Source: a virus
Lineage: Duplodnaviria; Caudoviricetes
Reading direction: 5' to 3' (one strand)
Virus record (IMG/VR): IMGVR_UViG_3300034190_001473
Location: 1 to 53,109 of that record
Length of the DNA: 53,109 nucleotides
Shown: piece by piece, positions 16,376 through 48,031 of the stretch
Layout: each line of letters begins with the position of its first letter
Position numbering within the stretch: the first letter of the stretch is position 1
Notes under the pieces: generated by a model
Told to the model about the DNA's origin: nothing
Seen by the model: only the letters and a program-made list of their open reading frames with translations
Database searches by the model: none
Position numbers and translations under genes: made by a program

Positions 16376-16590
16376 CGCTCCTTACCTCCCGCAACAAAGT
16401 ACGAGGCAACCAGCCCAGACAGCGCTAAATACTGAGCCATCAAAATACTTTCGGCGGCTTCAACTCGCGCTGGGTCGTACAAGGTAACAGCCGTAGCGAC
16501 TAGCATCATCACCATTGCTGCCCAACACATATGTCGGCGGTTGGCTTGGTAAGTCTTGAAGTCGATATGTTCACGTTCTTCCTGTGTCAT
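16372..16590 (-). CDS. small two-TM membrane protein
   Basis: Two hydrophobic helices; lies in the lysis cluster. Confidence 0.65.
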   Translation of the reverse strand: MTQEEREHIDFKTYQANRRHMCWAAMVMMLVATAVTLYDPARVEAAESILMAQYLALSGLVASYFVAGGKER

Positions 16591-16844
16591 TCCTCAAATC
16601 CTTCTTTAAGACCTTCCATGATCTCTTTGACCGTAGGACGGCGCTTGGTGTTGGGCGAGTAGCGACACTGAAACGACTTGGGACACTCAGTGTAGCTGAA
16701 CGAAGGGTAATGATACGCCGTCGTTCGGTTTGGACCGAGATAGATGCACACCATTTCGCCCGAAATTTTTGTGCGCTTGGCCAGTTGGCAAGTGACGTAG
16801 TCTGGGGTGGCCAGTCCCGCGACTAAGATTGCTGCAAACCACAT
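16587..16844 (-). CDS. small Cys-containing exported protein
   Basis: Signal-like N-terminus, four Cys; TGATG coupling to the giant gene. Confidence 0.65.
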   Translation of the reverse strand: MWFAAILVAGLATPDYVTCQLAKRTKISGEMVCIYLGPNRTTAYHYPSFSYTECPKSFQCRYSPNTKRRPTVKEIMEGLKEGFEE

Positions 16845-25800: not shown

Positions 25801-28800
25801 CGCTTACGCCAATAGCCGACGACGTCCTTACGTTGCCTCTGTCACCTCGGATACTTTTGCCGTCTTTAACTGGGTTGGTGCTGGTGCTGTCGTAGGCTAA
25901 TCTGTCCAGCTTCTTTGCGCTATCGGTGCGCTGACCCTTCCTGTCGCCGTAAGCATATGTCTCGTCGTCCACCCCACGGCGACCCATGTCTATATTTTTT
26001 TCGCGGCTCTTTTGCAGCTTTTCGTTACGTGTATCAAGAATTGAAATTATCTTAGAGACGTACATGTCTCTCTTAAAGCCGTACTTGTCTATCAGAGCTG
26101 CTATTTCTGCGCGAGCTGCTAGGTGTGCCTCTTGAGCTGGTGTGGCATCCTTGGTTGGTGACACTTTGTAACGAATACGAGTAGCGCCTTTAGCAACGCC
26201 AACAATGTCGCCGCCGGGACTAGCCAAGATGTTACCAAAGTCATAACCAGCCAGCCTAAATTCACGGCTCTGGATTTCGGTGGTGTACTTTTTGCCAGCC
26301 GCGCTTTCTGCCAACGACGGCTTGAAAGTTCTCAGCATTTTTTCCAGAGCTTTTGTAAGCTCTTGCCGCATCTGTCGGTTAGCATCTATCTCGTTTGATA
26401 TGGCTTGCTGATTGCGCTCGACAAAGTCACCAGAGCGACGCATCCATCTGTCGACCTTGTCGTCAGCCAATCTGTTTACGATTGTTTCCGCGTCGGCCAT
26501 TTTCATCTGACCACTTGCCAGCAAGCTCGACAAATATTTTTCTTTGAACTCGTTAAGCTCGGTTTTCATGGAGCTAGGAAGGCCTTCGATAAACACTTTT
26601 ATCTCTGACTTCTTTGCAGGGGGGAAATCAACGCGCTGGACGTCTGGGTTGTTAATCGCTGCGCGAGCAATATCTGCAAACTCTGGCGTGAAGTCTTGCG
26701 CCATGCCCTCTAAGACTTGGTCAGGCAATCCAAAGCCGTCCACCAATCTGTCGTCAAAGATTTCTACTGCTTGTCGCTCACGCCAATCATTATACTCAGC
26801 CATTGCACCCGCACGGTATGGCGTCGCGTCTCCGTATTTCTCTGCTTGGTTTGCGTCTAGTAAAGTTTCAAAAACTACATTGTTTAATGCAGACGCAGCT
26901 ATGCCGTCGTCATCGTTTAGCAATTCTATAGCATCGCTGCGGCCAGCATATTCTTCAAGGATTGCTTGGAACTTTGCTTTTCGTGCAGCAATAGCCGCCT
27001 TGGTATTTTTCTTAATGCTGCTGATTTGTTCAGCCAACTGCTTAGCGGTGAACGGCCCACCAATGTTATCGACTAATAATTGCAAAACGGCAAATCGACT
27101 GTCGGCATTAGTATTCATGTCGACAATATTTACGATCCGCTCGGTAGCGGTCACTACTACTTCGACTGGTGCTACGTCGGGTGTGCCGCCGCTTGGCTCT
27201 TCTACTGGCTGTGCGGCCACTTTCGCAGCATGTCTCGCCATTCTGTCTTGCTCAAAGAGCTTTGTCGCTTCTGAGCTTTTTTCTTTTACGGCGTCTTGAA
27301 CTGCGCGTTGGTCGTCGGCAGCTTTAGTCGCGTCATCTAGCGCTTGTCTTTTCTCGTTAAAGACGGCCATTTCTGGGCTGTCAGGAGCGCTTGTCACTTT
27401 TTCAATGTTGCCGCCATCAGCGTCTTGACCGACTACTTCTTTTTGCAGGCCTCGTTCCGCGTCTTGCAGTTCTCGCGTCGCGCTATCAACCGCTTCATCT
27501 AACTCAGGCAGCTTCTCGCCAGCGGCCTCGACTTGCTGGCGCAATGCCTCCTGTATACGTGCTTCTCTTTCGGCAATCGCGCTTTCATTGACATCTGATA
27601 ACCGTTCGCCAGCCGTGTCGCTCGGCTGACCGCCACCCGTAAGATTTTCGCGGTTTTTCCCTACCCCTACGGCGTCTACGCCTTGAGCTTGTGCCACTGC
27701 GTTGGTAACGTCTCGGACTAAACTTCGTCCCTCGCCTTGCGTGTTTTCTTCAACAGTAAAGCCTTCGCCCACAGCGGCGTTCATAGTGTTGTCTGCTGCG
27801 TTACCGACGCCATCGGTATAGCCAATGCGCTTCTGTTGGTTTGTTAAGTCTTCCAGCAATTTGATGTCGACGTCTGCCGTGGCTTTGGATGGAGCATCAA
27901 TGCCCTGTAGCTGCACTTCGATTTTGTCTGCCACTGCACGGTGGCGTTCTGCCAAGTCGCGTGCTTCTCTAATCTTTACTTCGTTAGCGCCAGCGGCCAC
28001 CATTTTTTCAGCGTCGGCGTCATACTTTGAGGCAAGGCCAATGCTATCGTTCATAGCTTTGACACCGTTTAAAAACCGCTGCGATGCGCTCGTATCAACC
28101 GATGACGAAGCGCTTACGTCGATAGTCTTCCCGCTGTCGTCAGCAGTTCCTTGCTCCATCACAGCGTCTTGCAGTTCTTGCGTTCTTTGGCGCTCTGCCC
28201 GATCCGTAAATACTTGGGTCAGGCGCACTTTATTGGCTGGCGTCCCGATCCCTGTTGGTTCTTCTGGGGCGGCGTTCTCGGCCTCTTGCTGTGCTTTCGC
28301 CGCTGCCGTCTGGCGTCCGTCTAAGTCAGCTCTGAACGCTGCACGACGTCCGTCCCTTATGCCTCGACCTATGGCGTTGCCCTTGCCAAAGCCTTTGGAC
28401 ATTGGGTTGACGTTAGGGACAAGCGCACCAGCTAGACCCATAGGTGCGCCGAGCAATGCGCCCCCAATTAACCCGCCGCCGATTGCAGCGCCCGTCTGCA
28501 TCAAGCTGTACTTGTCTTGCAAGCCAATCTTTATATCACGCGACTGCGTACCTAGACTGTGTATGCCCTCGACTAGACCACCAGCCAGAGCTTCCGAAGT
28601 CGCACCCTTTGTAAGACCAGCGCGGATACCAGCTTTTCTTGCTTGGCCTAATGCTGCCTGTGTCGTGGCATTTTTTACGCTGTGAGTACCAGCTTTGGCC
28701 ATAACGCCAGCCGCCGCCGCACGCGCAGCAACTCCACCCGATCCGAAACCTACGACGTTAATAACGTCGAGCAGACCAGCCGCAGCATTTGTGCGAAACC

Positions 28801-29188
28801 CCTGCCAGCCGTCGCCACCTTCCTCATAGAAGTCTGGCATCGCGTCAAAAGTTGTTTGCAGTCTAGCAAGACGTGTGTTTTGCGCGTCGCTCTGCGACTT
28901 ACTGTCGTATATGTCTCGGCCAATGGATACAGTGTTCATGTTGCGCCAGCGGCGGTCTTCCATGAAATAGTCTTTGGCTTCGTCTGTGCTTGTAAATGTC
29001 TTGCCGTCGCGCTCTTGGTAGTAATCAAATACGTCTTGGACAAATGCCGAGCTATTCCAAGCGTTGCGTGCGGTTTCTTTGGTTAAACCCGCTGCGTACC
29101 CCAGACCTGTGTCGCCTTGACCGTCCTGTGGGCCACCGTCAATGTCAATTTGTGCGTTGTTTAAAAAGTTGCTAAATAATTTCGACAC
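16844..29188 (-). CDS. giant internal virion / ejection protein (4114 aa), polyvalent-like
   Basis: 12.3-kb ORF after other ejection genes. HETAH...SEYFA zincin motif; GDGVYMT...VVPVFAK...PFD...GYDA...VVF ART-like motif; Gly/Ala-rich hydrophobic N- and C-terminal segments. Confidence 0.85.
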   Translation of the reverse strand: MSKLFSNFLNNAQIDIDGGPQDGQGDTGLGYAAGLTKETARNAWNSSAFVQDVFDYYQERDGKTFTSTDEAKDYFMEDRRWRNMNTVSIGRDIYDSKSQSDAQNTRLARLQTTFDAMPDFYEEGGDGWQGFRTNAAAGLLDVINVVGFGSGGVAARAAAAGVMAKAGTHSVKNATTQAALGQARKAGIRAGLTKGATSEALAGGLVEGIHSLGTQSRDIKIGLQDKYSLMQTGAAIGGGLIGGALLGAPMGLAGALVPNVNPMSKGFGKGNAIGRGIRDGRRAAFRADLDGRQTAAAKAQQEAENAAPEEPTGIGTPANKVRLTQVFTDRAERQRTQELQDAVMEQGTADDSGKTIDVSASSSVDTSASQRFLNGVKAMNDSIGLASKYDADAEKMVAAGANEVKIREARDLAERHRAVADKIEVQLQGIDAPSKATADVDIKLLEDLTNQQKRIGYTDGVGNAADNTMNAAVGEGFTVEENTQGEGRSLVRDVTNAVAQAQGVDAVGVGKNRENLTGGGQPSDTAGERLSDVNESAIAEREARIQEALRQQVEAAGEKLPELDEAVDSATRELQDAERGLQKEVVGQDADGGNIEKVTSAPDSPEMAVFNEKRQALDDATKAADDQRAVQDAVKEKSSEATKLFEQDRMARHAAKVAAQPVEEPSGGTPDVAPVEVVVTATERIVNIVDMNTNADSRFAVLQLLVDNIGGPFTAKQLAEQISSIKKNTKAAIAARKAKFQAILEEYAGRSDAIELLNDDDGIAASALNNVVFETLLDANQAEKYGDATPYRAGAMAEYNDWRERQAVEIFDDRLVDGFGLPDQVLEGMAQDFTPEFADIARAAINNPDVQRVDFPPAKKSEIKVFIEGLPSSMKTELNEFKEKYLSSLLASGQMKMADAETIVNRLADDKVDRWMRRSGDFVERNQQAISNEIDANRQMRQELTKALEKMLRTFKPSLAESAAGKKYTTEIQSREFRLAGYDFGNILASPGGDIVGVAKGATRIRYKVSPTKDATPAQEAHLAARAEIAALIDKYGFKRDMYVSKIISILDTRNEKLQKSREKNIDMGRRGVDDETYAYGDRKGQRTDSAKKLDRLAYDSTSTNPVKDGKSIRGDRGNVRTSSAIGVSDATAALGLGKHIGYTQVAATGKMTVWGKTTEGKATTAQLAAVFGKSKGGKLFRKTTVRNGQTGKLETLNSQVTAQMAIHDAAIDAASEQRVSNSVKAKRNLPYTQPRITAIEQLDKAINKLKSAKNPKPSKKNPDAAIDPQKVADAQDALDALYSKLRIATFFVDDPSLKKGTQILVDPAQLQLARQALVDSTSDASEISDAQVMRRALKGIVSDFNSSTKKEAAADNKVEYLENEGLTSLRTEYNALRNKLHDTMKGRLEKQGDGTMARTGEKVAMDEVELQRMRATLTKLGFALQNALDTGAKVDSKVADDLISAPGKARAAAARQDYARTKSEGDQATRDAAQEAAMNERRGLDGDNAYDQAFQNFDHIKDPELRAELEADAFNAAVTATLNNRAGNGPEMTPEDYAIMAGVPLNEAKPINPATKTAVRQKADSIMQEEAASVEMGEDIAEALTIQRDNGLPKAWLEDQIKKIRAHYAKKTKPVTEPDSVPPTSKGKPPYIRVIDGIEIDLFNDLDYVDLGNSRTSIGFEGRMLGAVDSLPDGKAVFTRASDGKVYVFDTKKDLIDDLLPMFRETFNQVANKMPNKYRRKANQVGTEYPIDHKNSETYGNNKPLTPNTKKGETPLDTPAKPVDPADRLTHNGEYYAAQIPTGKMFAVQIVDKTSKLKGSVRATSLKKAQSAGDMLKNSSRYEFIFGHVDLPSTGVSRKDQLLETFRPMDASDSFYDRNGKLVTVADADAELASLANTVPDGSKAAVNTKASKLSTIADNPISGSEEHIAVLAELATVPKTIGELNDMMFGLESISWNMLPSLNSYKNFMRLRASVGALLNSSAKNGIDRDTARRVKVNYNQLQQALSEHAPDDLAASVSFLENLFTFTGKSPLIEVGNENSFTPDFANEKFGSKRNRITLDKEQINAGGNRHTPITATIIHETAHWLYANVLDETDKVQFWSAMEKFYNDAEAGDGLDMDLLQKGSVDPQLFSNSLHSPSEYFANQFLTWVTSNGQVNNISLWGKIAQLGTMLLNNLRGIETPGVQLDPDLVPIFQKHMPVLQPDPVTGKMNVGISRFAHLEGVGAKFGKPMKEGQKRNTAAFLGEKIRLLDTTRLTLLGAKMRTPASLDDSLSLATDMEAAKNKIYGMFGGKAGEETHYFNPLQEGSGNVRITMFDTGTGSLQRGKLLEAQHKVHAFLKALRENKKAFNPDVEETKQRDDEIRKLIDDGGTPDEATEAKIREDSPYDNLDEKIIQQMDLLATNLNNAMDVMNRQMIAAFNRQMPRDATTDLYIGITFEGQAEVRKVNRKSERFKKMAREDAAEYQSKKEALDLIVAQFNNAGIDIADVAPDDLAGMVDELAVPIAPIEALKRHIVDGDTGVMAIQSIFQSINELGARPDLTSIPTMQELYKQALAKGDFAKQILTELTNMSKNGEQHKIVARLAKAATELGDPLWIQIALRWKTDPKNIGVKHEGVYAPPNKPAGDKSAPFVVAKGAMTHRRADVETVLQSLWTNFHNAGISETEAPNKIVDTEYTAHVITGYGQNKAGNDEVVLEQDGPLFKEMRKTLRKLAVKITRINDARLNQQPSREALDAKKDYITENLYEDVLPDLYMMAYRMLSPSQQKDINDAAQVSYADANQRESETLDFFVTRAMRQTNSGVKPDIGKTNTFDDRLRTLLKRQYENSSQNQASGGTFTYDPPKFAVADVENGLKEIGQIVFDLTHDILAFPKDTIAFKRDYDEANKWVNSGEEIFLLSPTKEEVAIARTPVLMAAKSHGSSTISPTIAGRFGRELTMSMSEKMQATVRTFLGASPFENVDTFLRFNKSPQADVNGVTKTSDGPYGDGVYMTKAGEADAEFDEVEFLETTKRALQSSPLTPADIDGGMVSAEAIVFYRQSILDLMNRSQDQNGVVNHELKHFLAMQDRHWRLLESLDGSIVQPKVVPVFAKMSTPFDLTSGSSYSFRSDAQDGISYLIGRMVNAGLINFGAVEELMSNVPDTFSGAALHRTLTGEDGLMVKHGTAKNAIKARQAFNAFMSGQGYDALTTDVGDVVFSSASVRQAEGGFTPVDANFSSNPTRNSERKMGGSLAIEMAVVNGELPPGRFANLAQEAQRLELPVQLVPVLGKIFKKQDVTEADAQKVSKLSSVVNFFSENAAHFRNVGANWYADKIKPQDGAGFFEEHDVELHNTVNGVFQKLNALPDAGGRVKKWANRNRGLMLKDAKQPDSHNRIISALRRGRGAVQELAQEEREAALEIGRLFDAELKKMRDLGIAVGDARNLGNDFYVPQVWDVDELLANPNRFKDALVTYFKREQNSPDYRGQKRHSIDELEAKAENVHYRLTQGHDPSIDTQVQKALGSIFAPRVLQLQAGDMVEMDNFLVTDLQGIMSKYFDRTVRKRLLTERFGLNMHGFDTYLDVARGATMSGKGSGLDRAVEILRSAKHTSSHGQSKEGPLQVDEVLVPRVQGRGNEIKDLLVSVEKELGDTPELRRKNKHRARAMLINAVEGIDRDDVGYNVRVDAIINAMIDFPRTNRLTHSNETKMRDMMNVLNKRSIDGGDGSELRYVVSRNMKAFNSVSLLGFTTLTSMPDMVLPLIRSGDMRAFYTAWKGYVKKDPAYRDAARNIGVGIENLMHDRAVQQSGAGNQKFTNSFFNFTGLTGWTNINREVSAMVGFESFKTEINRALAMRAKGLRGSKDYETSIRYLKRYGLTGEGAKYDFLKHGAIRLDELPPSDEAIKKQVQMAMLRFTNESVFMPNPNDTPLWAQNPWQSMMWQLKSFPLMMARLSGYVISEAKAGNTKPALYLLTAGVGMGSLSVMTKDVVQMRGGEDEQSMALRERKGSDTNMLGLWSIAQGLGAKEGGDADENLGLYIDGLLAVGGLGLFAELLYNASAQMDNGAYGTVRIASSIFGPSVSAGTGAIDVATGLKDYVTGDGEATAKRRAMLRQLAMRFPILGGVSYFRESAADLGGEPSTGGKKSNSSSFGGTFD

Positions 29189-35337: not shown

Positions 35338-35793
35338 CTATAAGTCCTTCTGAAAAATGTAGCCCGTCTGGGTGTAGCCGTTCTTTTGAGCAAACTTGTC
35401 CCAGCCATTACGGACGCCATTATTGCACGGCATAAACAGCAAGACTTCTGCGTCGTTGTATCTTGCCCAATGCTCAAACTTTTTCATAAAGCGTAATGCA
35501 GTTGAGCCGCCACGATGCAACGGATGTATATACATGTTCTGCTCTATCGCCAGCGTGGTTTGACCAAAGTAGTGTTTACTCAAGTTGGCAAAGAACATGC
35601 CTGTTATGCCGTCGTCGGTCACAATGTCTTCGTCTACTAAGCTCAGTTTCTCTTCGCTTTCGATGTAAGACTTTAGCATAAACTGAACTTTGTCTTCGTC
35701 GAAGTCGTGGTTCGAAAACACACCTTCACTGTGCATAACCTCACCAAGCACCGCCAGCGGTGTCACGTCTTCAAGAGTTGCCAAGCGGATCAT
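35338..35793 (-). CDS. GNAT-family acetyltransferase
   Basis: MIRLATLED...MYIHPLHRGG...KNGY. Confidence 0.8.
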   Translation of the reverse strand: MIRLATLEDVTPLAVLGEVMHSEGVFSNHDFDEDKVQFMLKSYIESEEKLSLVDEDIVTDDGITGMFFANLSKHYFGQTTLAIEQNMYIHPLHRGGSTALRFMKKFEHWARYNDAEVLLFMPCNNGVRNGWDKFAQKNGYTQTGYIFQKDL

Positions 35794-36245
35794 GGCGCTC
35801 TCCCATACGTCGGCCCGACGTAGTCGTAGCCTAGTCGCTTGGCTATAATATCAAAGCCTGAGTGAATACTGACAGTCGGCTCAAAGAATATGCCCTTGCA
35901 TTTGTTTAAAGCGGCCCAACTTCGCAGCTCTCGCATAAAGCTCATAGGAACCTTGAGGTTCCCACGGTGGTTAGGCTCAATATACATCAGCCTTTGCTCA
36001 GCTATGAGGTCGCTGCCAAAGAAGGTCTTGGATATTTGTGCTGAAAAGAAACCCACAATCTCACCTTCTTTCTCGTAAACCATAAACATCCAGTCTGGCT
36101 GCTCGTGTGTTAGCTTTGCGTGCGCCATCATGTCGTCGGCGTCTACGTCGTATTCTTTGTAGTAGCCCTCCGCTATCATATCGAAAGCAAGGGCTACGCA
36201 TCTGTCTATGTCTTCCGCTTCGGCCAAGCGGATTAGTTCTTTCAT
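35790..36245 (-). CDS. GNAT-family acetyltransferase (paralog)
   Basis: IRLAEAED...MYIEPNHRG...RLGY. Confidence 0.8.
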   Translation of the reverse strand: MKELIRLAEAEDIDRCVALAFDMIAEGYYKEYDVDADDMMAHAKLTHEQPDWMFMVYEKEGEIVGFFSAQISKTFFGSDLIAEQRLMYIEPNHRGNLKVPMSFMRELRSWAALNKCKGIFFEPTVSIHSGFDIIAKRLGYDYVGPTYGRAP

Positions 36246-41070: not shown

Positions 41071-41703
41071 TTATCTCCCAGTGTTGTAAGATTGCGTGCC
41101 TGTCGGCCTTTGTGATACGTCCCACGGGCTGACTTCGATTGCGCCACTGCCATACTTGCGATGGTACAGAACACGGTTCATCATTTTGAAATACATAGGG
41201 CCATATGCTTCGATCTTGTTTGACTGTTGCTGGACCGCGTAGTGATACAGCAATCCCGAAACCATGATGTTGTCGGGGATCGGCATGACCTCGGAAGGGT
41301 GCGTGTAATAGTTTATTTCTGGGTTGTCCCAGTAAGGATGACCACGCAAGTCTTCTATGACGAGGTTCGCAAACTCTATGAACATCATCATTACTTCGCC
41401 GTCGACGGTTCCGGGGTGCATGTCGCCGTACCGTCTAAGGGACTGCATGACCAAGGCTTCTAGGTTGGAGTATGGCGAGTTGAGGTGAGGGTTGTTGCCA
41501 GAAAAACGGTTACGCTTCTCGCGTGCTTGGTCGCCTTCGCGCCAAGCTGTGTCAGCGGTCTTAATCAGGGTGGCGTCTATGTCACGACGCAAGTCTACCG
41601 CACCTACGACTGACTTGCCGTCCTCGTCAGTGTGACGAGGCTCGTCGTTCGCAGGCAGTGTGCCTGTGATAGTCGCGCTGTCGTAAGAGCGGTAGGTTGC
41701 CAT
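41071..41703 (-). CDS. head-tail adaptor / tail tubular protein A-like
   Basis: Position and helical C-terminal domain. Confidence 0.5.
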   Translation of the reverse strand: MATYRSYDSATITGTLPANDEPRHTDEDGKSVVGAVDLRRDIDATLIKTADTAWREGDQAREKRNRFSGNNPHLNSPYSNLEALVMQSLRRYGDMHPGTVDGEVMMMFIEFANLVIEDLRGHPYWDNPEINYYTHPSEVMPIPDNIMVSGLLYHYAVQQQSNKIEAYGPMYFKMMNRVLYHRKYGSGAIEVSPWDVSQRPTGTQSYNTGR

Positions 41704-41981
41704 TAGTCTTCCTCCACTCGAATAATGCGGCCCTGCACAATAAACTCGTGCATTACAAAACGCTCAACCAAGTGGTCGGGTACAGACCAAGTTAGGTATT
41801 CTTGCTCTTTGCAGAACCGTGGACGTATTTCCTCACCGACTACGGTAATCGGGAACGCTGTTATTTCTGGATTGCTTGAAACGAATAAAACCTTAGACGG
41901 CAGCGCACGTACTGGTGCGGCGGCGACTTTAGCCCTTTTAGATTTGGCCGTTACTTTAGCGGCTTGTATTTTATCAGACAT
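41703..41981 (-). CDS. hypothetical protein
   Basis: Start moved to ATG 41981 (GGAG RBS). Confidence 0.65.
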   Translation of the reverse strand: MSDKIQAAKVTAKSKRAKVAAAPVRALPSKVLFVSSNPEITAFPITVVGEEIRPRFCKEQEYLTWSVPDHLVERFVMHEFIVQGRIIRVEED

Positions 41982-41990
41982 GTTGTCTCC

Positions 41991-42024
41991 AAAAGAATGG
42001 GGCTGCAATTTCTCACAGCCCCAT
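41991..42024 (-). terminator. intrinsic terminator after the capsid gene
   Basis: ATGGGGCTG/CAGCCCCAT 9-bp stem followed by TCTTTT on the minus strand. Confidence 0.75.
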
Positions 42025-42053
42025 CCTACAAAGTTTTTAAGATTGGTTCGTCC
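42023..42053 (-). promoter_or_regulatory. putative late promoter GGACGA-N19-TAGGAT
   Basis: Motif copy just after the capsid stop; the -10 box overlaps the terminator stem. Confidence 0.65.
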
Positions 42054-42057
42054 TCAC

Positions 42058-43239
42058 TTAGGAGACGGCGCTCCAACCCTTAATGCGGTGATGCACTTTC
42101 GACTGAAGCATTTCTAAACCACATTCGGTTTGGTACATGTGCTTCACACCATCGAAGTCTGGCGCTTGGATGTCACGGATCAACTGAGTGTCACGACCCT
42201 GCATGTAGCGATACTTCAGCTCGCTCATGTCGAGAATAATCATCTCTTGATCCAGACCCGGTATCTGACGGAACATCGGGTGCATGTAGACCAGCAAGTC
42301 GCCAGCGTAGGTGGTGTACCGCGAAAGACTTACGCCGTAGGCGTTGTCGATCTGAGTTGGTTGCCAGCGGTTCTTGCCGATTTCCATAAGGTTGGAAATC
42401 ACGCGAGCACCACAGAACGCGACCTTCTCATTGCCGCCATATGCGAAGATGTTTTCGATCAACAAGCGATCAAATTCTTTCTCCGTGATGACGTTGGACG
42501 AAGCACCGTAGGACGCACCATCGGTTACAGTTGTGATGCTGTTACGCAACCCGCCTGTGAAACGAAGGGGCGATGCAGTAGAGCCGTTGACTTCAGCACG
42601 CTTCCCGAAGAACATGGCCCGTTCTATGTCGGACATGTGCATCTTTAGCGCTTTGGTAAGCTGCTCTTGCTCTTTGTCGCCAGTACGCAGATAGGTGTTC
42701 TGCAATGTACCTGTGACCTGTACGCTCGACTTAAAGATTTGCGTGTAGTTGAAATCCATAGTCGGGTCGAAAGAGATTGCAGTCGGGGCTGACCCGCCTT
42801 CAGTATCCGCAAACCCACCGATAATAATATCCGCATTATCAGCAATTTGGTGTGCAGTTCCACCGATGTTACGCTCAACCGCGATTGAGTGTGAAGAGTT
42901 CACTGCGGCAGTCGCACGCATAACTTCGCCAGTGGCGACGTTAATTAAGATGGTTCCCGGTACGACAAAGTTTTTGTCTACGTTGGAAGCATCAATAGTG
43001 AAGGCGGCAGTCGAAGTCGATGCAACCGCACCGTTGACTGTCAACTTGCGATCTGGAAGTTCATCGCGGTAGTGGTTGTACTTAGGGTCATCCGTGCTTT
43101 CGGAACCCGTCATCGACAACAATGCCTGTAGGGGTGCGCTGCCATTTGGCTCAAGAAGAGTAAAAAGCTCGCGATAGTTAGTGGGGCGAAAGTCAGTCGT
43201 AAACTGGCCAGTCCCGCGAAGTCCTTGAATAGCACTCAT
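42058..43239 (-). CDS. major capsid protein (SU10/DUF5309-like)
   Basis: NYTQIFKSSVQVTGT, DIERAMFFG, RFTGGL, TECGLE; downstream of the scaffold gene. Confidence 0.85.
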   Translation of the reverse strand: MSAIQGLRGTGQFTTDFRPTNYRELFTLLEPNGSAPLQALLSMTGSESTDDPKYNHYRDELPDRKLTVNGAVASTSTAAFTIDASNVDKNFVVPGTILINVATGEVMRATAAVNSSHSIAVERNIGGTAHQIADNADIIIGGFADTEGGSAPTAISFDPTMDFNYTQIFKSSVQVTGTLQNTYLRTGDKEQEQLTKALKMHMSDIERAMFFGKRAEVNGSTASPLRFTGGLRNSITTVTDGASYGASSNVITEKEFDRLLIENIFAYGGNEKVAFCGARVISNLMEIGKNRWQPTQIDNAYGVSLSRYTTYAGDLLVYMHPMFRQIPGLDQEMIILDMSELKYRYMQGRDTQLIRDIQAPDFDGVKHMYQTECGLEMLQSKVHHRIKGWSAVS

Positions 43240-43286
43240 AGCTATTGCTCCTGTGTTAAGAGGTGTGTGGGTTTGGGGCAGCTAAC

Positions 43287-43364
43287 AGTCTCGCGGCTTC
43301 AGCGACTAAGACTTGTCGTACCTATGTCTGTCAGACGTTCGGGCCGTAGCGCGAACCGTGTCTG
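43287..43364 (-). promoter_or_regulatory. structured capsid 5' leader (two hairpins)
   Basis: Hairpins at 43332-43364 (GC-UACG-GC apex) and 43287-43313 (GC-UGAA-GC apex). Confidence 0.55.
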
Positions 43365-43372
43365 TCTTGTGT

Positions 43373-43403
43373 ATTAAAGCAAAAAAAAGGGGGGCTGTCG
43401 TCC
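43373..43403 (-). promoter_or_regulatory. putative late promoter GGACGA-N19-TTTAAT for the capsid gene
   Basis: Motif copy embedded in the scaffold terminator. Confidence 0.65.
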
Positions 43404-43407
43404 CCCC
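43381..43407 (-). terminator. intrinsic terminator after the scaffold gene
   Basis: GGGGGG-ACGACAG-CCCCCC-T8 on the minus strand. Confidence 0.8.
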
Positions 43408-43417
43408 TCTAATTTTT

Positions 43418-44470
43418 TTATGCAAGGCCGCGCTTTTGCATGGCTTGTGCAGTTAAGGCGTCCATAAAGCCTTGGTCTGGACTTGCCGCAGTCGCAGCCG
43501 CACCGCCGCCAGACGGCATAGGATTGACCGAGCCAGTGAAGGCTTGACGGCGTTCGTTCATAGAACGAAGGCGTTCCATTTCGGGCGCGTCACGGTTCGC
43601 CGCAAAGTCTTGGCCAATTTTGTATGTCAGCTCTGGATCAATGAAGTCGTCCTCGTTGTACCCACGGCCATAAGCGAAGTTAAAGAAGTCGTCTTGCGCT
43701 TCGTCTGGTAGCTTGAGGGCTTGCTGCATTTGGTTCAAGTTGTTTGCAGCCTTCTGTCTGTACGCGCTGTCTCGCTGCGCTTCCGCAGACTGCAATGTCT
43801 TGCCAGCCTCTTTATTGACCCCGTTAGCTTCGGCCATCATGTTTTGCATCATGCCTTTCATCTGGCCGTTTTCTTCTTGGAGTTGCTGGATTAGCGACAT
43901 ACCTTGTCGATACATCGGGGGTAGCTCGACGCCGCTCTCACGCTCCCACGCAGCAATCTCATCGTCGACTTCCATCGCTGTACGATTGCCGTCTGGACGG
44001 TCTGGGGTCACGTCGCGCTGGTCGCCCAACGTCGGGTTCTTCGTGTAGGCTTCCATTGAGGCTCTAAGAAACTGAGCCATGTCGTCGCCAGATACATTGT
44101 GGCCAGCGTTTTGGGCGTTCCGCATGACCTCTTCAATCATACTGATTGCAGGCTGCATTGGCTTGTAACGTGTGGCGTTGTCGTGGTTAAGCGTCTTGTA
44201 TCGGCTGGACATGCCTGCGATCTGAGAGGCCGACATAGTTTTCTTCTGCCCGTCGCCCATGTCTATTTGAATGAAGGCTTCCTCTTGAGACTTATCACCC
44301 TCCGTTTGAGGGCCAGCGATCTCCTGTGCCTTCTCATTGTCAGTCGGAGCCGCGTCTTTCGATTGCGGTGGCCCTGCCGGTACGGGGGCAGGCTGTCCAT
44401 CGGGTGCTGGCGCTGGGCCTAACTGTTGCGCTGCCATTTGTGCAATCATTGCGTCGTCTTGTTCTGCCAT
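43418..44470 (-). CDS. capsid scaffolding protein
   Basis: Acidic, Pro-rich N-terminus and coiled coil; immediately upstream of the capsid gene. Confidence 0.7.
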   Translation of the reverse strand: MAEQDDAMIAQMAAQQLGPAPAPDGQPAPVPAGPPQSKDAAPTDNEKAQEIAGPQTEGDKSQEEAFIQIDMGDGQKKTMSASQIAGMSSRYKTLNHDNATRYKPMQPAISMIEEVMRNAQNAGHNVSGDDMAQFLRASMEAYTKNPTLGDQRDVTPDRPDGNRTAMEVDDEIAAWERESGVELPPMYRQGMSLIQQLQEENGQMKGMMQNMMAEANGVNKEAGKTLQSAEAQRDSAYRQKAANNLNQMQQALKLPDEAQDDFFNFAYGRGYNEDDFIDPELTYKIGQDFAANRDAPEMERLRSMNERRQAFTGSVNPMPSGGGAAATAASPDQGFMDALTAQAMQKRGLA

Positions 44471-44502
44471 TTTCTTTCCTTTCCAGCCGTAGCGGGATGT
44501 GT

Positions 44503-44784
44503 TTAGAGGGCCGTGGCGCTCTCTTTAAGCTCGCCCCTGTTGGCAGCGTCCATCAAGATATTGTTGTTCAAGACTTGGCTAACTACAGAAGGGAGGTCGA
44601 CGAACTTCCTCGCGGCCCACATGGAACCGCGACGAAAATGCACCTCTTCTATGGGCATGGCTGGGCCATCACACAGTTGATATGCTGCTTGAAGAATGGA
44701 GTTTTCCATTTCCTCTTGGATTACTTGCCAGCCCTTCGACTTGAGCATGGCGTCTATTGCGACTTGTTTTTGTTTTGGGGTCAT
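44503..44784 (-). CDS. hypothetical head-associated protein
   Basis: Start moved to ATG 44784 (ATGA overlap); SKGWQVI motif as in small genes preceding scaffolds. Confidence 0.65.
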   Translation of the reverse strand: MTPKQKQVAIDAMLKSKGWQVIQEEMENSILQAAYQLCDGPAMPIEEVHFRRGSMWAARKFVDLPSVVSQVLNNNILMDAANRGELKESATAL

Positions 44785-45391: not shown

Positions 45392-48031
45392 TTAAATCCG
45401 CTTGGCTGGAACGTATAGGTTGCCCTCGTTACCGCTGACTTTGCCGTTCGTATCAGTGCCCCAAGTGTACATATCGCCGTTCTCGTCTAGGACTTCCCAG
45501 CCTTGGCTCAAGCTGGTTGAAGACCCCATGTAACCTTGGACGTTGGCTTGAATTAACGTGCCGTTTACGCCGAGTGGGAAGGCTGGGGACATTGGCGAAG
45601 AAATTGGGCTTGGGAAGTTGTAGAAACCACATTGATAACTCGCCGTACCCGTGATGTAGAACCAGCCGTTGCGTCGAGCGATGCGGTCTTCCTTGTTGGC
45701 GTGGCACATAAAGCCCATATGGTAGTAACCCGACGTTCCCGCTGGGGCGCAATAGATTTCCGACACCCATTTAAGTTTGTCGTCACAGATAAGTGGCGTT
45801 GTTGTTTGGGTGGCGTTGCCGCGACCTTGTACGCCGACAGTGTTCTGACCTGTGGCATACAAGCTGCCGTCTTCTGTCAGGAAGAACACGTTTTCTGGGT
45901 GATACCCGCGTGGGAATACGTCGATAACGTGCTTGTTGGTGTCAGTGCCGAGGCCACCCGCGACTTGAGTGAGAGTGTAAACAGTGCTGTCGGTGTTGCC
46001 GAGGCCAAGCTGACCATAGTTGTTTCTGCCACATGCGTAGACACGTCCAGACGCCATCAGTACGTGTGTCGTGCCGTGGCTTCCCGCACCTGTCGCAATC
46101 GCTTTAACTGGCGTCTGACCAGAGACAGAGATTTCCGTTGGCGTTTGCTTGATAGCGGTGTTGTTACCCTGACCGCACTGACCATAGTTGTTGCCGCCCC
46201 AAGTGAAAATACGGTTGTCTGTGGTGAGCACGACACAGTGGTTGTAGGTGCCGCCACTGCAACTAATCGACTTCACGTTTTTGTTGAAGGCGTTGATATA
46301 AGTGATAGTGTTTTTGTTAGCGACTGTGCCGTCACCCATGCCGCCGTTGACGTTGTAGCCCCAAGCGTAAAGGTCGCCATCTTCCATTAACAGCATTATG
46401 GTAACTGCCGTCTCGGTGCTGGATGAGCTGCTGGATGCAATGTAGCGGCAACGCCCCGCGCCTGACGGGATCGGAACCTTGTGAAAATAGTTGCGGTCTA
46501 CGTTAAAGCCGTCAACTTGCTGGCCTTCGTCGCCGTGACCCGTCACGTAAACGGAGCCGTCTGCGTGAAGGATCGTCGTGTGGCTGTATAGATTGATAAC
46601 TTGAATTGCGTCCGAGAACATTACGTTGTCAGCCATCGTGAAGCCGCCCAAACCTTGCCCGTTCTTCGCGTAACCGTTGGTTTCCCACACATAGTCGCCG
46701 TGGTTGTACTTGCCAGTTTGCCCTTCGGAGTTAGACCCCCATGTCGAACATTCGAGCCTGCCACGGTTATAGACAATCGCTGACGAGTGGTTGCCAGTAG
46801 TCCAGCCCGTCTTGCCCATGTCCCATGTGCCTGTGTTCGCCGCATATGAGTGGGTCGAACCGCCGAGAGTACCTGTGGCTTCTGTAATGTGGTTGGCAAA
46901 CTTGTAGCGTCCACCTGACCAAATGCCAGTGTAGTCGCCTTGGAGAGAAGCAAACTTGCGGTTCTCGTTTGCGCCCCAGTTCTGCCACACTGGTTTGCCT
47001 GTGTATTTGTCGATGCCGAGTGTGTCGCCGTAGTCACCGACAGGTAGGCGGGTGACGGCTGTGCTGGTAAGCACGTTGATCTGACCGCCAAGGCCAATGG
47101 TGTCGAACGTCGCGCTGTCTGTGCCGCGAGAATAGTAAAACAGAGTTGCGACGTTCGGTGTGGCTGGCATTGCGACTGTGACTGTCGCGTTAGACGAACC
47201 TTCCGTGCCAGAGCGGGTAACGTGTACTGTGCTAGTCGCGTCGAATGAGGCCAAGTCTGTGCCGCTATTGTGCGTGCCGTCCGACGTAGTCGAGAACGAA
47301 AAGATGTGGCCCGTGTTCGATGCGTCCGATACGTCGAAGATGTAGCTGATACCCGGCTGCATGGGGAAAGTCGGGGCTTTGTCATAGCCGCTATGGAACC
47401 CGCGTCCTTCGGGGAATTGTGGCTTAATGTAGTAGTAGCTTTCCGCTCCGTAATTACGGACGTGGACAGTGTACTGCACAACTGACGCCGACGATGTTCC
47501 TTCTTTATACATCATGTCGCCTGCGGTTGTCATAGGCGTGGTGACTGCCTGTGCGATTGCGGCTGTGTCGATGACGTGCGCGTAGTTAGTCCCGTCGCAG
47601 AATACCCAGCCCGTAGAGTTGGCTGCGATAGACGGGATGTTGGCTGTCTGGTTCAATGCCTTGACTGTGACAGGGACAGGCAGAGCGTTGTCGATGATAA
47701 CTGCTACGCCTTTGCTGGGCGCGACTACGACAAAGCCAGACTGAGCGTTGCTGCTGTCTGAGTTGGTGATCTTAACGACTGTGCGAGCGACCTGTTCGTC
47801 GGTGAGTGTTACCGTAGCGGCTGTCGCAAGACCTACGCTGACGACTTCGGCAGGCTTGGTGGCCTCGTTAATCATACTGAGCATAGCGTCTGCGCCAAAC
47901 AGCCGCTCGGCTGCTGTCGAGAGATACACTAAGTCGCGTGAAGTTGCGGCTGATGCGCCAGTATCATCTGCCAATACTTTGCCGCGCGTTTTGATTGCAT
48001 CGACAAGTTCTTTAAGAGAGTTCGTACTCAT
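45392..48031 (-). CDS. tail fibre / receptor-binding protein with RCC1-like repeats
   Basis: Repeated WGxNxxGQxG units (WGSNSEGQTG, WGYNVNGGMG, WGGNNYGQCG, CGRNNYGQLG, TGQNTVGVQG). Confidence 0.8.
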   Translation of the reverse strand: MSTNSLKELVDAIKTRGKVLADDTGASAATSRDLVYLSTAAERLFGADAMLSMINEATKPAEVVSVGLATAATVTLTDEQVARTVVKITNSDSSNAQSGFVVVAPSKGVAVIIDNALPVPVTVKALNQTANIPSIAANSTGWVFCDGTNYAHVIDTAAIAQAVTTPMTTAGDMMYKEGTSSASVVQYTVHVRNYGAESYYYIKPQFPEGRGFHSGYDKAPTFPMQPGISYIFDVSDASNTGHIFSFSTTSDGTHNSGTDLASFDATSTVHVTRSGTEGSSNATVTVAMPATPNVATLFYYSRGTDSATFDTIGLGGQINVLTSTAVTRLPVGDYGDTLGIDKYTGKPVWQNWGANENRKFASLQGDYTGIWSGGRYKFANHITEATGTLGGSTHSYAANTGTWDMGKTGWTTGNHSSAIVYNRGRLECSTWGSNSEGQTGKYNHGDYVWETNGYAKNGQGLGGFTMADNVMFSDAIQVINLYSHTTILHADGSVYVTGHGDEGQQVDGFNVDRNYFHKVPIPSGAGRCRYIASSSSSSTETAVTIMLLMEDGDLYAWGYNVNGGMGDGTVANKNTITYINAFNKNVKSISCSGGTYNHCVVLTTDNRIFTWGGNNYGQCGQGNNTAIKQTPTEISVSGQTPVKAIATGAGSHGTTHVLMASGRVYACGRNNYGQLGLGNTDSTVYTLTQVAGGLGTDTNKHVIDVFPRGYHPENVFFLTEDGSLYATGQNTVGVQGRGNATQTTTPLICDDKLKWVSEIYCAPAGTSGYYHMGFMCHANKEDRIARRNGWFYITGTASYQCGFYNFPSPISSPMSPAFPLGVNGTLIQANVQGYMGSSTSLSQGWEVLDENGDMYTWGTDTNGKVSGNEGNLYVPAKRI

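What the first reader, a model, noticed from the sequence alone, without database searches (positions are those of the whole stretch)
43287..44522. Four look-alike RNA hairpins (C-GC-tetraloop-GC-Y) in scaffold and capsid leaders
Seen in minus-strand mRNA. Scaffold leader: agag-C-GC-CACG-GC-C-ctct (44522-44505) and tcc-C-GC-TACG-GC-T-gga (44497-44482, abutting the SD). Capsid leader: gttcg-C-GC-TACG-GC-C-cgaac (43356-43337) and gt-C-GC-TGAA-GC-C-gc inside agtct/agact (43313-43287). The lower stems differ in sequence but still pair, while the C.Y mismatch and GC/GC apex are kept; this pattern suggests a protein-binding RNA motif, present as a pair before each head gene. Established: P22 scaffolding protein autoregulates post-transcriptionally. 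Inference: a shared translational operator couples scaffold and coat synthesis. I do not recognise it as a named family.
Basis: partly seen in the sequence, partly recalled or inferred. Interest (0 to 1): 0.72.

Follow-up and report, generated by a model that had tools for sequence, protein, structure and literature searches.

The report
Conserved capped hairpins on phage head-gene mRNAs
Three of the four hairpins are copies of one uncatalogued, strongly conserved RNA hairpin that sits in front of the scaffold-like and major capsid genes in a family of marine phages and probably helps these two head proteins to be made in large amounts.

Summary
All four hairpins exist at the stated coordinates. 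H1, H2 and H3 belong to one real class: a free-varying lower stem, a pyrimidine-pyrimidine mismatch, two G-C pairs and a YNMG (mostly UACG) tetraloop. In 80 related viral loci the core occurs 177 times on the sense strand and 3 times on the antisense strand. It always lies at the same two places: a tandem pair ending 14-17 nt before the scaffold-like gene's ATG, and one copy 106-135 nt before the capsid ATG. The three lower-stem pairs covary strongly. H4 is conserved too, but it is a different hairpin (apex GCUGNA) inside a larger capsid-leader domain. H1 lies in the 3' end of an upstream ORF in this window, and it is read in other frames or is noncoding in other clades. Rfam has no match, a literature string search found nothing, and the paper on the cultured relative CRP-810, which carries the motif, does not mention it. 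The motif is confined to phages with this head module. H3 follows a terminator and a promoter-like signal. RNA contigs from two studies end at its base. My best reading is a shared post-transcriptional 5'-edge element with an unidentified sequence-specific reader. Autogenous scaffold-coat coupling remains untested.

The parts
44505..44522 (-). H1: AGAG / C / GC / CACG / GC / C / CUCU. It is a class member with the rarer CACG loop. In this window it overlaps the last six codons and the first base of the stop codon of the upstream 93-aa ORF.
   Evidence: 12.5 bits; conserved 21-28 nt upstream of H2 in relatives
44482..44497 (-). H2: UCC / C / GC / UACG / GC / U / GGA. It is the best-scoring class member and abuts the SD.
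   Evidence: 28.3 bits; motif end to ATG is 14-17 nt in 39 of 40 distinct leaders
44468..44481 (-). SD (AAGGAAAG) and ATG of the scaffold-like gene, directly after H2
44503..44784 (-). Upstream 93-aa ORF, conserved in all relatives. It is predicted as a helical hairpin with an invariant R-R-G, and its function is unknown. Its 3' end overlaps H1.
43418..44470 (-). 350-aa scaffold-like gene. It has no Pfam or PHROG family and is called scaffold from its position, size and composition only.
   Evidence: weak atlas lead to Phage-scaffold at 0.89
43386..43410 (-). Intrinsic terminator T1 after the scaffold-like gene. Its loop and 5' arm carry the conserved GGGACGAC (43397-43404).
   Evidence: -18.4 kcal/mol, z -4.6; GGACGA[CT] in 49 of 52 distinct spacers
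43373..43378 (-). -10-like hexamer TTTAAT, 18 nt after GGGACGAC. This is a possible capsid promoter.
   Evidence: a -10-like hexamer 18-19 nt after GGACGA[CT] in 37 of 49
43332..43364 (-). H3 with its extended stem. The inner hairpin is 43337-43356: GUUCG / C / GC / UACG / GC / C / CGAAC. The outer helix is CAGAC/GUCUG.
   Evidence: -14.7 kcal/mol; 23.5 bits; 72 of 76 loci; RNA contigs of two studies end at 43356
43287..43313 (-). H4: a different conserved hairpin with apex GC-UGAA-GC. It is part of a longer capsid-leader domain.
   Evidence: flanks pair better than shuffled, mean z -2.1, 21 of 40 below -2; not matched by model R1
42058..43239 (-). Major capsid protein gene (SU10-type)
   Evidence: PF17236, 3.4e-44
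41994..42027 (-). Terminator-like hairpin T2 after the capsid gene
   Evidence: -26.4 kcal/mol, z -6.1

Best explanation
H1, H2 and H3 are copies of one cis-acting RNA hairpin class. The lower stem varies freely, and above it come a Y.Y mismatch, two G-C pairs and a YNMG (mostly UACG) tetraloop. The class marks the 5' edge of the two high-demand head messages in a family of marine CRP-810-like phages.

Shown: the element is real, strand-specific, fixed in position, structurally constrained and confined to this head module.

Inferred: it acts after transcription as a 5'-edge cap. H3 forms the first structure of the capsid message, which is either transcribed from a promoter-like signal just after terminator T1 or trimmed back to the hairpin. 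H2 sits directly 5' of the SD of the scaffold-like gene. H1 lies one A/U/C-rich spacer upstream of H2. Together the hairpins would block 5'-end-dependent decay, keep the ribosome binding site free of long-range pairing, and, with terminators T1 and T2 at the 3' ends, delimit stable scaffold and capsid mRNAs.

The apex is held fixed over hosts of very different G+C content and includes a destabilising mismatch. I therefore infer that one sequence-specific reader, a protein or a nuclease of phage or host and still unidentified, recognises all copies, so that the two messages are handled together.
For: Strand and position. The core CGCYACGGCY occurs 177 times on the sense strand and 3 times on the antisense strand in 80 loci totalling 593,051 nt. 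It lies 106-135 nt before the capsid ATG in 72 of 76 loci.

H2 module. H2's motif ends 14-17 nt before an ATG in 39 of 40 distinct leaders. This holds even where that ATG opens a 12-47 codon ORF instead of the scaffold-like gene, which is the case in 4 of the 40.

Structure. I used 115 distinct copies that were not selected for stems. The three lower pairs are 76-94% paired with 4-5 pair types each. The covariation score is 0.50, against 0.11 in shuffles (0 of 500 reach it) and 0.08-0.16 when the partners are slid.

Not a coding constraint. H1 is read in two frames (A-T-A or R-Y-G-P) or lies after the stop codon, depending on the clade.

Specificity. In the window and in 10 related records, the strong model hits lie in the two leaders only. 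The two other hits of 20 bits or more are inside ORFs. In IMG/VR the tandem pair in hairpin context occurs only with this head module: 47 of 84 newly fetched stretches have module homologs and all 47 have an ATG 8-29 nt after the pair, while 37 have no homologs and only 2 of those show stems on both copies.

Joint absence. Two distant relatives (L315, L329) have no UACG/UUCG-type copy in either leader.

5'-edge placement. GGACGA[CT], 18-19 nt, a -10-like hexamer, and then H3's stem a few nt later. An RNA contig of run X8 (94% identical, depth 22) runs from the capsid gene to the base of H3 and then directly into Illumina adapter. A contig of run X9, from another study and 100% identical over 70 nt, ends at the same base, 43356.

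Delimiting terminators. T1 and T2 flank the two genes.
Against: No reader was found. No ORF of the window has a recognisable RNA-binding domain. The two conserved small neighbour proteins have no significant fold match, and both are also present in the two relatives that lack the motif.

The RNA evidence comes from contigs only. A contig can also stop at a strain-variable base, and position 43357 varies among relatives. Base 43356 lies 17 nt after the -10-like hexamer, which is too far for a start site, so a processing step has to be assumed.

No promoter-like signal precedes H1/H2. An RNA-library contig of run X6 spans the upstream ORF, H1, H2 and the ATG without a break.

G.U against A.C counts in the stems do not tell which strand folds: 6 against 13 in the three inner pairs. 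The strand assignment therefore rests on orientation, position and loop type.
Confidence: 0.42

Rival explanations
1. Translational operator. A phage protein binds the capped hairpins and represses or couples translation of the two messages, setting the scaffold-to-coat ratio. The protein could be the free scaffold-like protein, the capsid protein or a small neighbour.
For: H2 abuts the SD at a fixed distance in 39 of 40 distinct leaders, the classic place for an operator. A tandem H1-H2 pair would suit a dimeric binder. The fixed apex with a mismatch points to protein recognition. The motif occurs only with this head module. The P22 scaffold autoregulation paper appears as a title in a reference list.
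Against: H3 is 106-135 nt from its ATG and at the 5' start of the leader, so it cannot mask the capsid RBS directly. No RNA-binding domain or fold was found in the neighbouring proteins. Binding could not be tested. The scaffold-like protein is acidic and helical by reading of its sequence.
Confidence: 0.25
2. Processive antitermination signal of the nut or put type. The nascent hairpins, alone or with a small protein, modify host RNA polymerase so that it reads through T1 and T2 into the downstream virion genes.
For: Each terminator is preceded by class members in the same transcript: H1/H2 before T1 and H3 before T2. H3 lies just after a promoter-like signal. The phage is temperate-like, with an integrase and no RNA polymerase of its own detected. 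A fixed loop on a variable stem recalls boxB (own knowledge).
Against: H2's fixed 14-17 nt distance to an ATG has no role in antitermination. The loop is a 4-nt YNMG, not a boxB-type pentaloop. No N-like or Q-like protein was recognised. Partial termination at T1/T2 is itself a plausible way to raise scaffold and capsid mRNA levels.
Confidence: 0.12
3. A structure-only element with no reader. An extra-stable UNCG-capped mini-hairpin serves as a fast-folding clamp or nuclease roadblock, and the apex is kept simply because it is the most stable short cap.
For: 104 of 115 distinct copies have a UNCG loop (UACG, UUCG or UCCG) closed by C-G. That such caps are extra-stable and occur between phage genes is own knowledge (Tuerk et al. 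1988, recalled).
Against: A destabilising Y.Y mismatch is kept in every copy that matched the search pattern and at the same place in the loci. 11 of 115 copies carry non-UNCG loops (CACG, UUAG, UAAG) while keeping the rest. UACG is strongly preferred over the equally stable UUCG: 94 against 9 of 115. No GNRA caps occur at these sites.
Confidence: 0.12
4. A DNA-level site (protein binding, packaging or replication), or a by-product of coding or chance.
For: Stem covariation alone would also fit a DNA cruciform, and the wobble counts do not settle the strand. H1 and the 16.5-kb look-alike lie in Ala-Thr-Ala codons.
Against: 177 sense against 3 antisense copies. Fixed distances to the SD and ATG. 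The motif is non-palindromic. H1 is kept in different frames and outside ORFs. The window count exceeds all 100 shuffles.
Confidence: 0.04

Closest known systems
C(UNCG)G extra-stable tetraloop hairpins between phage T4 genes (Tuerk et al. 1988; recalled, not read here)
   Same: A small hairpin capped by UACG or UUCG on a C-G closing pair, in phage intergenic mRNA.
   Different: Here the two pairs under the loop and a Y.Y mismatch are also fixed. Non-UNCG loops (CACG, UUAG, UAAG) are tolerated. The copies sit only before two specific genes and are conserved by position across a phage family.
Translational operators bound by phage or host proteins (MS2/PP7 coat-replicase hairpins, T4 gene 32/regA, the thrS tandem-hairpin operator; own knowledge)
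   Same: A fixed-apex hairpin next to an RBS (H2), and a tandem arrangement (H1-H2) as in thrS.
   Different: No binding protein is known. H3 is far from its RBS. The same apex is shared by two different messages.
5'-terminal stabiliser stem-loops (ompA-type; Emory, Bouvet and Belasco 1992, recalled)
   Same: A hairpin at or near the 5' end of an abundant message (H3; weak RNA hint).
   Different: Known stabilisers need no particular sequence, whereas here the apex is invariant. H1/H2 are internal to an operon.
Lambda/P22 nut boxB and HK022 put RNAs (own knowledge)
   Same: A fixed loop on a variable stem, upstream of terminators, in a temperate-type phage.
   Different: A tetraloop with a mismatch rather than a boxB-type pentaloop. 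No N-like protein was found. The tight link to the SD and ATG is unexplained by antitermination.
Fixed-apex hairpins in scaffold and capsid leaders of other phage groups, noted earlier in this scan (AI notes, unchecked: e1-6103936, e1-6059891, e1-5894391, e1-456519, e1-5849030)
   Same: Small hairpins with free stems and a fixed tip, confined to scaffold and capsid leaders.
   Different: Other apex sequences and other phage lineages. Only one of them has a candidate reader (a phage CsrA-like gene), and none was found here.

Membership tests
Any Rfam 15 family | Score at or above the family's gathering threshold | tested here: not met
   0 matches over the whole window at gathering. In 43150-44650 at E<=10 there are 9 weak matches; the strongest lie on terminator T1 and none covers a whole hairpin, only ceN28 (14.9 bits) clips H2's 3' half.
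C(UNCG)G tetraloop hairpins | UNCG loop | tested here: met
   104 of 115 distinct copies have UACG, UUCG or UCCG. 11 of 115 have CACG, UUAG or UAAG. In the window, H2 and H3 have UACG and H1 has CACG.
C(UNCG)G tetraloop hairpins | C-G closing pair | tested here: met
   115 of 115, but the search pattern required it. It is independently exact at the same position in 72 of 76 capsid leaders.
Lambda-type nut (boxB plus boxA, with N) | Pentaloop of the GNRA-like type on a short stem | tested here: not met
   The loop is 4 nt, YNMG.
Lambda-type nut (boxB plus boxA, with N) | An arginine-rich N-like antiterminator is encoded | tested here: inconclusive
   No such family appears among the ORFs scanned with Pfam and PHROGs. 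Small basic proteins without a family could be missed.
Lambda-type nut (boxB plus boxA, with N) | boxA element next to the hairpin | not tested
   I ran no search with a boxA consensus.
Intrinsic terminators | G+C-rich hairpin followed by a U run | tested here: not met
   The scan lists T1 and not H1-H3. The flanks of H1-H3 have no U run.
RBS-proximal translational operators | The hairpin overlaps or abuts the SD or start codon | tested here: met
   Met for H2 only, at 14-17 nt from motif end to ATG in 39 of 40. Not met for H1 or for H3, which is 106-135 nt away.
RBS-proximal translational operators | Specific binding by a regulatory protein | not testable with these tools
   No tool here models a protein with RNA, and no candidate was found.
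5'-terminal stabiliser stem-loops | The hairpin lies within a few nt of the mRNA 5' end | tested here: inconclusive
   RNA contigs of two studies end at the base of H3, one running straight into adapter. The promoter-like signal places a start 0-5 nt before the extended stem. These are contigs, not raw reads.
RNase III processing sites (T7 type) | About two turns of duplex | tested here: not met
   H1 and H2 have 5-6 pairs. H3 has 7 pairs, or 12 with the outer helix.

The most novel reading that the evidence does not exclude
The capped hairpins are the address label of a small post-transcriptional regulon. One dedicated reader, still unidentified and possibly a protein without a known RNA-binding fold such as the conserved 93-aa or 92-aa neighbour, recognises the Y.Y / GC-GC / YNMG cap on both the scaffold and capsid messages and sets their stability and translation together. 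The same logic, with lineage-specific caps, would then recur across many tailed-phage groups as a general way to fix head-protein stoichiometry.
Probability: 0.3. Interest if true: 0.8.

Novelty: new variant of a known kind. Interest (0 to 1): 0.62.

Why it matters
Scaffold and capsid proteins are needed in hundreds of copies per virion, while their operon neighbours are needed in a few. How tailed phages set this ratio after transcription is known for very few systems. Here a 16-20 nt element with an invariant cap and heavy stem covariation marks exactly these two messages. It is found in more than 100 viral contigs from marine metagenomes and in the cultured roseophage CRP-810. The element would also be a new entry for RNA family libraries and a useful marker for annotating head modules whose scaffold genes have no protein family.

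Tried and rejected
Rfam at gathering and at E<=10 gave nothing on the hairpins beyond a weak ceN28 match that clips H2.

RNAalifold on MAFFT alignments of the H4 region predicted no pairs. For a hand-drawn H4 structure on 10 sequences of the window's clade, pair counts were no better than shuffles: 0.161 against 0.155. Support for H4 therefore comes only from the flank-pairing z-scores and from single-sequence folds, which put the apex in a hairpin in 15 of 17.

Counts of G.U against A.C did not identify the folding strand.

Search for a reader:
- Pfam on 9 plus 39 ORFs and PHROGs on 9 plus 40 ORFs showed no RNA-binding family.
- The AlphaFold models of the 92-aa and 93-aa neighbours (pLDDT 80.9 and 88.6) had no PDB match at E<=0.001. 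The best E-values were 0.17 and 1.4, the latter to P4 Psu, which is not significant.
- The atlas search gave only hypothetical clusters.
- HMMs of both neighbours hit all 10 loci tested, including the two without the motif, so there is no phylogenetic-profile signal.

None of the 120 has a head-module homolog, so these are chance or coding repeats and no prophage host was learned.

RNA runs are all held as contigs with small shares of the sampled words. Stretches without cover say nothing, and depth cannot rank the genes.

The P22 autoregulation paper is not held. A literature search for the motif string gave only unrelated primers and guide RNAs among the 15 listed of 154 papers. A search for tetraloop + major capsid + bacteriophage + UTR + stem-loop gave 1 unrelated paper.

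I did not use complex prediction, because it takes no RNA chain.
Full report
SETTING. The window is a 53,109-bp IMG/VR virus record, estimated 89% complete. The minus strand carries a virion module in this order:
- terminase and portal;
- an 879-aa RCC1-repeat protein;
- three small ORFs;
- a 350-aa protein with no family, called scaffold-like from its position;
- an SU10-type major capsid gene (PF17236, 3.4e-44);
- further virion genes, including a 4114-aa ORF;
- lysis genes.
An integrase and recombination and replication genes lie on the other arm. No phage RNA polymerase was recognised. The nearest named phage is Roseobacter phage CRP-810, which matches at the DNA level only in the capsid gene (65% identity).

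OBSERVATION. The generic description C-GC-N4-GC-Y is not special. The core occurs 103 times in the window against 88.7 expected, and 6 of the 103 have three or more flanking pairs, which is about the chance rate. The narrower CGC-YACG-GCY is special. It has 5 matches against 0.79 expected, and none of 100 shuffles reaches 5. Four of the five have 3-5 flanking pairs, all on the minus strand. These four are H1, H2, H3 and a copy at 16485-16502, which lies inside a 72-aa ORF. In this window H1 lies within the last codons (S-A-T-A-L-stop) of the upstream ORF, so it is not in an untranslated leader here.

RELATIVES. A search with the capsid protein fetched 80 loci at 68-100% amino-acid identity.
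- In 72 of the 76 loci with a complete capsid start, CGCYACGGCY lies 106-135 nt before the ATG. L067 and L076 carry UGCUACGGCC at that place.
- Over all 80 loci (593,051 nt) the core occurs 177 times on the gene strand and 3 times on the other strand.
- Most loci have a tandem pair, 21-28 nt apart, before the scaffold-like gene, plus the single copy before the capsid gene.
- With a relaxed pattern, the gene strand shows UACG 178 times, CACG 16, UUCG 12, and a few UCCG, UUAG and UAAG. The other strand shows about 60 scattered matches with no preferred loop.
- The cultured phage CRP-810 has an H2-like copy (UAAG loop) abutting its SD and an H3 copy after a terminator. Its paper has no occurrence of hairpin, promoter, terminator, scaffold, stem-loop or RNA polymerase (term search of the main text).

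STRUCTURE. I aligned 115 distinct 26-nt copies chosen by loop type and position only, not by stems.
- The three pairs below the mismatch are paired in 76%, 94% and 93% of copies, with four or five pair types each. The innermost, for example, is AU 40, GC 27, CG 24, UA 13, UG 3.
- The covariation score is 0.50, against 0.11 in shuffles (0 of 500 reach it) and 0.08-0.16 with slid partners.
- The mismatch is C.U in 75 copies, C.C in 33, U.C in 4 and U.U in 3, out of 115. The pattern forced pyrimidines there, but the exact-match positional data show the same conservation.
- Wobble against A.C counts (6 against 13 in the inner three pairs) do not settle which strand folds. The assignment to mRNA rests on orientation, position and the UNCG-type loop.
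- H1 is not held by coding. The upstream ORF reads it as A-T-A in the window's clade and as R-Y-G-P in others, or stops (often at TAG) at its base.

SPECIFICITY. A covariance model (R1) finds H2 (28.3 bits), H3 (23.5), the ORF-internal copy at 16.5 kb (13.3) and H1 (12.5) in the window, and does not find H4. In ten related records, four of them 99-100% complete, the strong hits lie in the two leaders. The two other hits of 20 bits or more are inside ORFs.

A scan of IMG/VR for the tandem pair gave 87 stretches. Of the 84 that were new:
- 47 hold homologs of the 93-aa, scaffold-like or capsid proteins. All 47 have an ATG 8-29 nt after the pair, and 41 have stems on both copies.
- The other 37 have no such homologs, are mostly coding tandem repeats, and only 2 have stems on both copies.
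More distant capsid relatives still carry the motif (L288, L289, L290, L323, and L328 with UUCG and UAUG loops). Two (L315, L329) have no UACG/UUCG-type copy in either leader.

ANATOMY OF THE TWO SITES.
(a) Scaffold-like gene. H2's motif ends 14-17 nt before an ATG in 39 of 40 distinct leaders, with the SD directly after the 3' arm. In 4 of the 40 that ATG opens a 12-47 codon ORF ahead of the scaffold-like gene. So hairpin-SD-AUG behaves as one module. H1 lies one short, G-poor spacer upstream. What precedes H1 is the conserved C-terminal coding sequence of the 93-aa ORF, with no promoter-like signal.
(b) Capsid gene. The scaffold-like stop is followed by terminator T1. GGACGA[CT] is present in 49 of 52 distinct spacers, 41-55 nt before H3. 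A -10-like hexamer, most often TTTAAT, follows after 18-19 nt in 37 of those 49. H3's (extended) stem begins a few nt later. H3 is therefore the first structure of any transcript started there.

The rest of the leader is also conserved. It holds a long hairpin domain whose apex is GCUGNA(N)GC; this is H4, and in the window's clade it happens to read C-GC-UGAA-GC-C. An ACGNAAC stretch follows before the SD in most clades. H4's flanks pair better than shuffled flanks: mean z is -2.1, with 21 of 40 below -2 and 34 of 40 below -1. Formal covariation could not be shown on MAFFT alignments. Terminator-like T2 follows the capsid gene.

RNA EVIDENCE (weak). Only assembled contigs of RNA libraries were available. 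In run X8, a 941-nt contig (94% identical, depth 22) covers the capsid gene up to H3. Three nt after 43353 it continues directly into Illumina adapter, which indicates many fragments with one fixed end at about 43356, the first base of H3's inner stem. In run X9, from another study, a contig identical to the window over 43287-43356 ends at 43356 with no loose end. This end could be a processed 5' end. It could also be a contig break at a strain-variable base, because 43357 varies among relatives. A low-depth contig of run X6 spans the upstream ORF, H1, H2 and the ATG unbroken.

MECHANISM. Three things are shown. This is a sense-oriented, structurally constrained element with a fixed cap. It occurs at two fixed places, in front of the scaffold-like gene and in front of the capsid gene. 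It is confined to phages with this head module.

The most likely mechanism is inferred, at about 0.4. The hairpins would be 5'-edge caps that protect and insulate the two messages, which T1 and T2 bound at the 3' side, and a common sequence-specific reader would recognise the cap. Three observations argue for a reader:
- the destabilising mismatch is kept;
- UACG is preferred over the equally stable UUCG (94 against 9 of 115);
- non-UNCG loops are tolerated while the rest of the cap is kept.

No reader was identified. No RNA-binding family appears among the ORFs. The conserved 93-aa and 92-aa neighbours gave confident models without significant PDB matches. Both neighbours also occur in the two relatives that lack the motif.

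The rivals are these:
- an autogenous or coupling translational operator (0.25), favoured by H2's place and disfavoured by H3's;
- nut/put-like antitermination (0.12);
- a structure-only clamp with no reader (0.12);
- a DNA-level or chance explanation (0.04).

COMPARISON AND NOVELTY. The cap resembles the C(UNCG)G hairpins known from phage T4 intergenic regions (recalled). The element works like translational operators or 5' stabilisers. It meets no Rfam family and fails the loop criterion of boxB, the U-run criterion of terminators and the length criterion of RNase III sites. I found no description in print. The evidence for that is the motif-string search (15 of 154 listed, all unrelated), the tetraloop/capsid search and the CRP-810 paper. 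Supplements were closed and could hold annotations that I did not see.

Earlier notes of this scan (AI notes, untested here) describe fixed-apex hairpins with other caps in scaffold and capsid leaders of other phage groups. They prompted my search for a phage-encoded reader, and they suggest the arrangement may be general.

VERDICT. This is a real, new RNA motif family of a known general kind. Its function is not yet shown.

Noticed in passing
window 43373-43404 (-), and the same spacer in L001-L080: GGACGA[CT] is embedded in terminator T1 and is followed after 18-19 nt by a -10-like hexamer (TTTAAT is the commonest). GGACGA[CT] occurs in 49 of 52 distinct spacers, and 37 of those 49 have the hexamer. 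This may be a dedicated capsid promoter overlapping a terminator. GGGACGAC is not repeated at other intergenic places in the window.
   Followed up: partly
L060, L061, L063, L066 (scaffold leaders): In this clade the H2-SD-ATG module opens a 12-47 codon ORF. The scaffold-like gene follows with its own SD.
   Followed up: partly
window 41703-41981 (-): A conserved 92-aa gene follows directly after the capsid terminator. It has a Lys-rich N-terminal tail and a small alpha/beta domain (pLDDT 80.9). It has no PDB fold match and no family, and it is present in all relatives tested.
   Followed up: partly
window 44503-44784 (-): A conserved 93-aa helical-hairpin protein with invariant W19, R51-R52-G53 and P65. 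It has no significant fold match. Its best hit is P4 Psu at E=1.4, which is not significant.
   Followed up: partly
window 16485-16502 (-): A fifth copy of CGCUACGGCU with a weak 4-pair stem lies inside a 72-aa ORF of the lysis region (13.3 bits). No extra site of this kind appears in the 10 related records searched, so it is probably a coding coincidence (V-A-T-A-V).
   Followed up: partly
L014, L015, L016, L021, L022, about 65-100 nt into the scaffold-like ORF: A further hairpin-shaped copy (GGG-C-GC-UCCG-GC-Y-CCC) lies inside the scaffold-like coding sequence (G-A-P-A-P) in some clades. It is absent from the window.
   Followed up: no
L288, L289, L290, L328 and L323, L329 (capsid leaders): At the H4 position, more distant relatives carry other clade-specific fixed loops: UGUUUAUC-like in the first four, and AUGGUAAUUC-like, twice in L329. 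The second hairpin of the leader therefore also looks like a recognition element that changes between clades.
   Followed up: no
window 16844-29188 (-): A 4114-aa ORF with no PHROG match lies in the virion module.
   Followed up: no
window 45392-48031 (-) and 35338-36245 (-): An 879-aa protein with RCC1 repeats and a weak tail-fibre match lies between the portal and the head genes. Two tandem GNAT acetyltransferase genes sit among the tail genes.
   Followed up: no
window 42119: RNA contigs of two studies (X8, directly joined to adapter, and X10) both end at 42119, about 60 nt before the capsid stop codon. This could be a fixed RNA 3' end or an assembly artefact.
   Followed up: no
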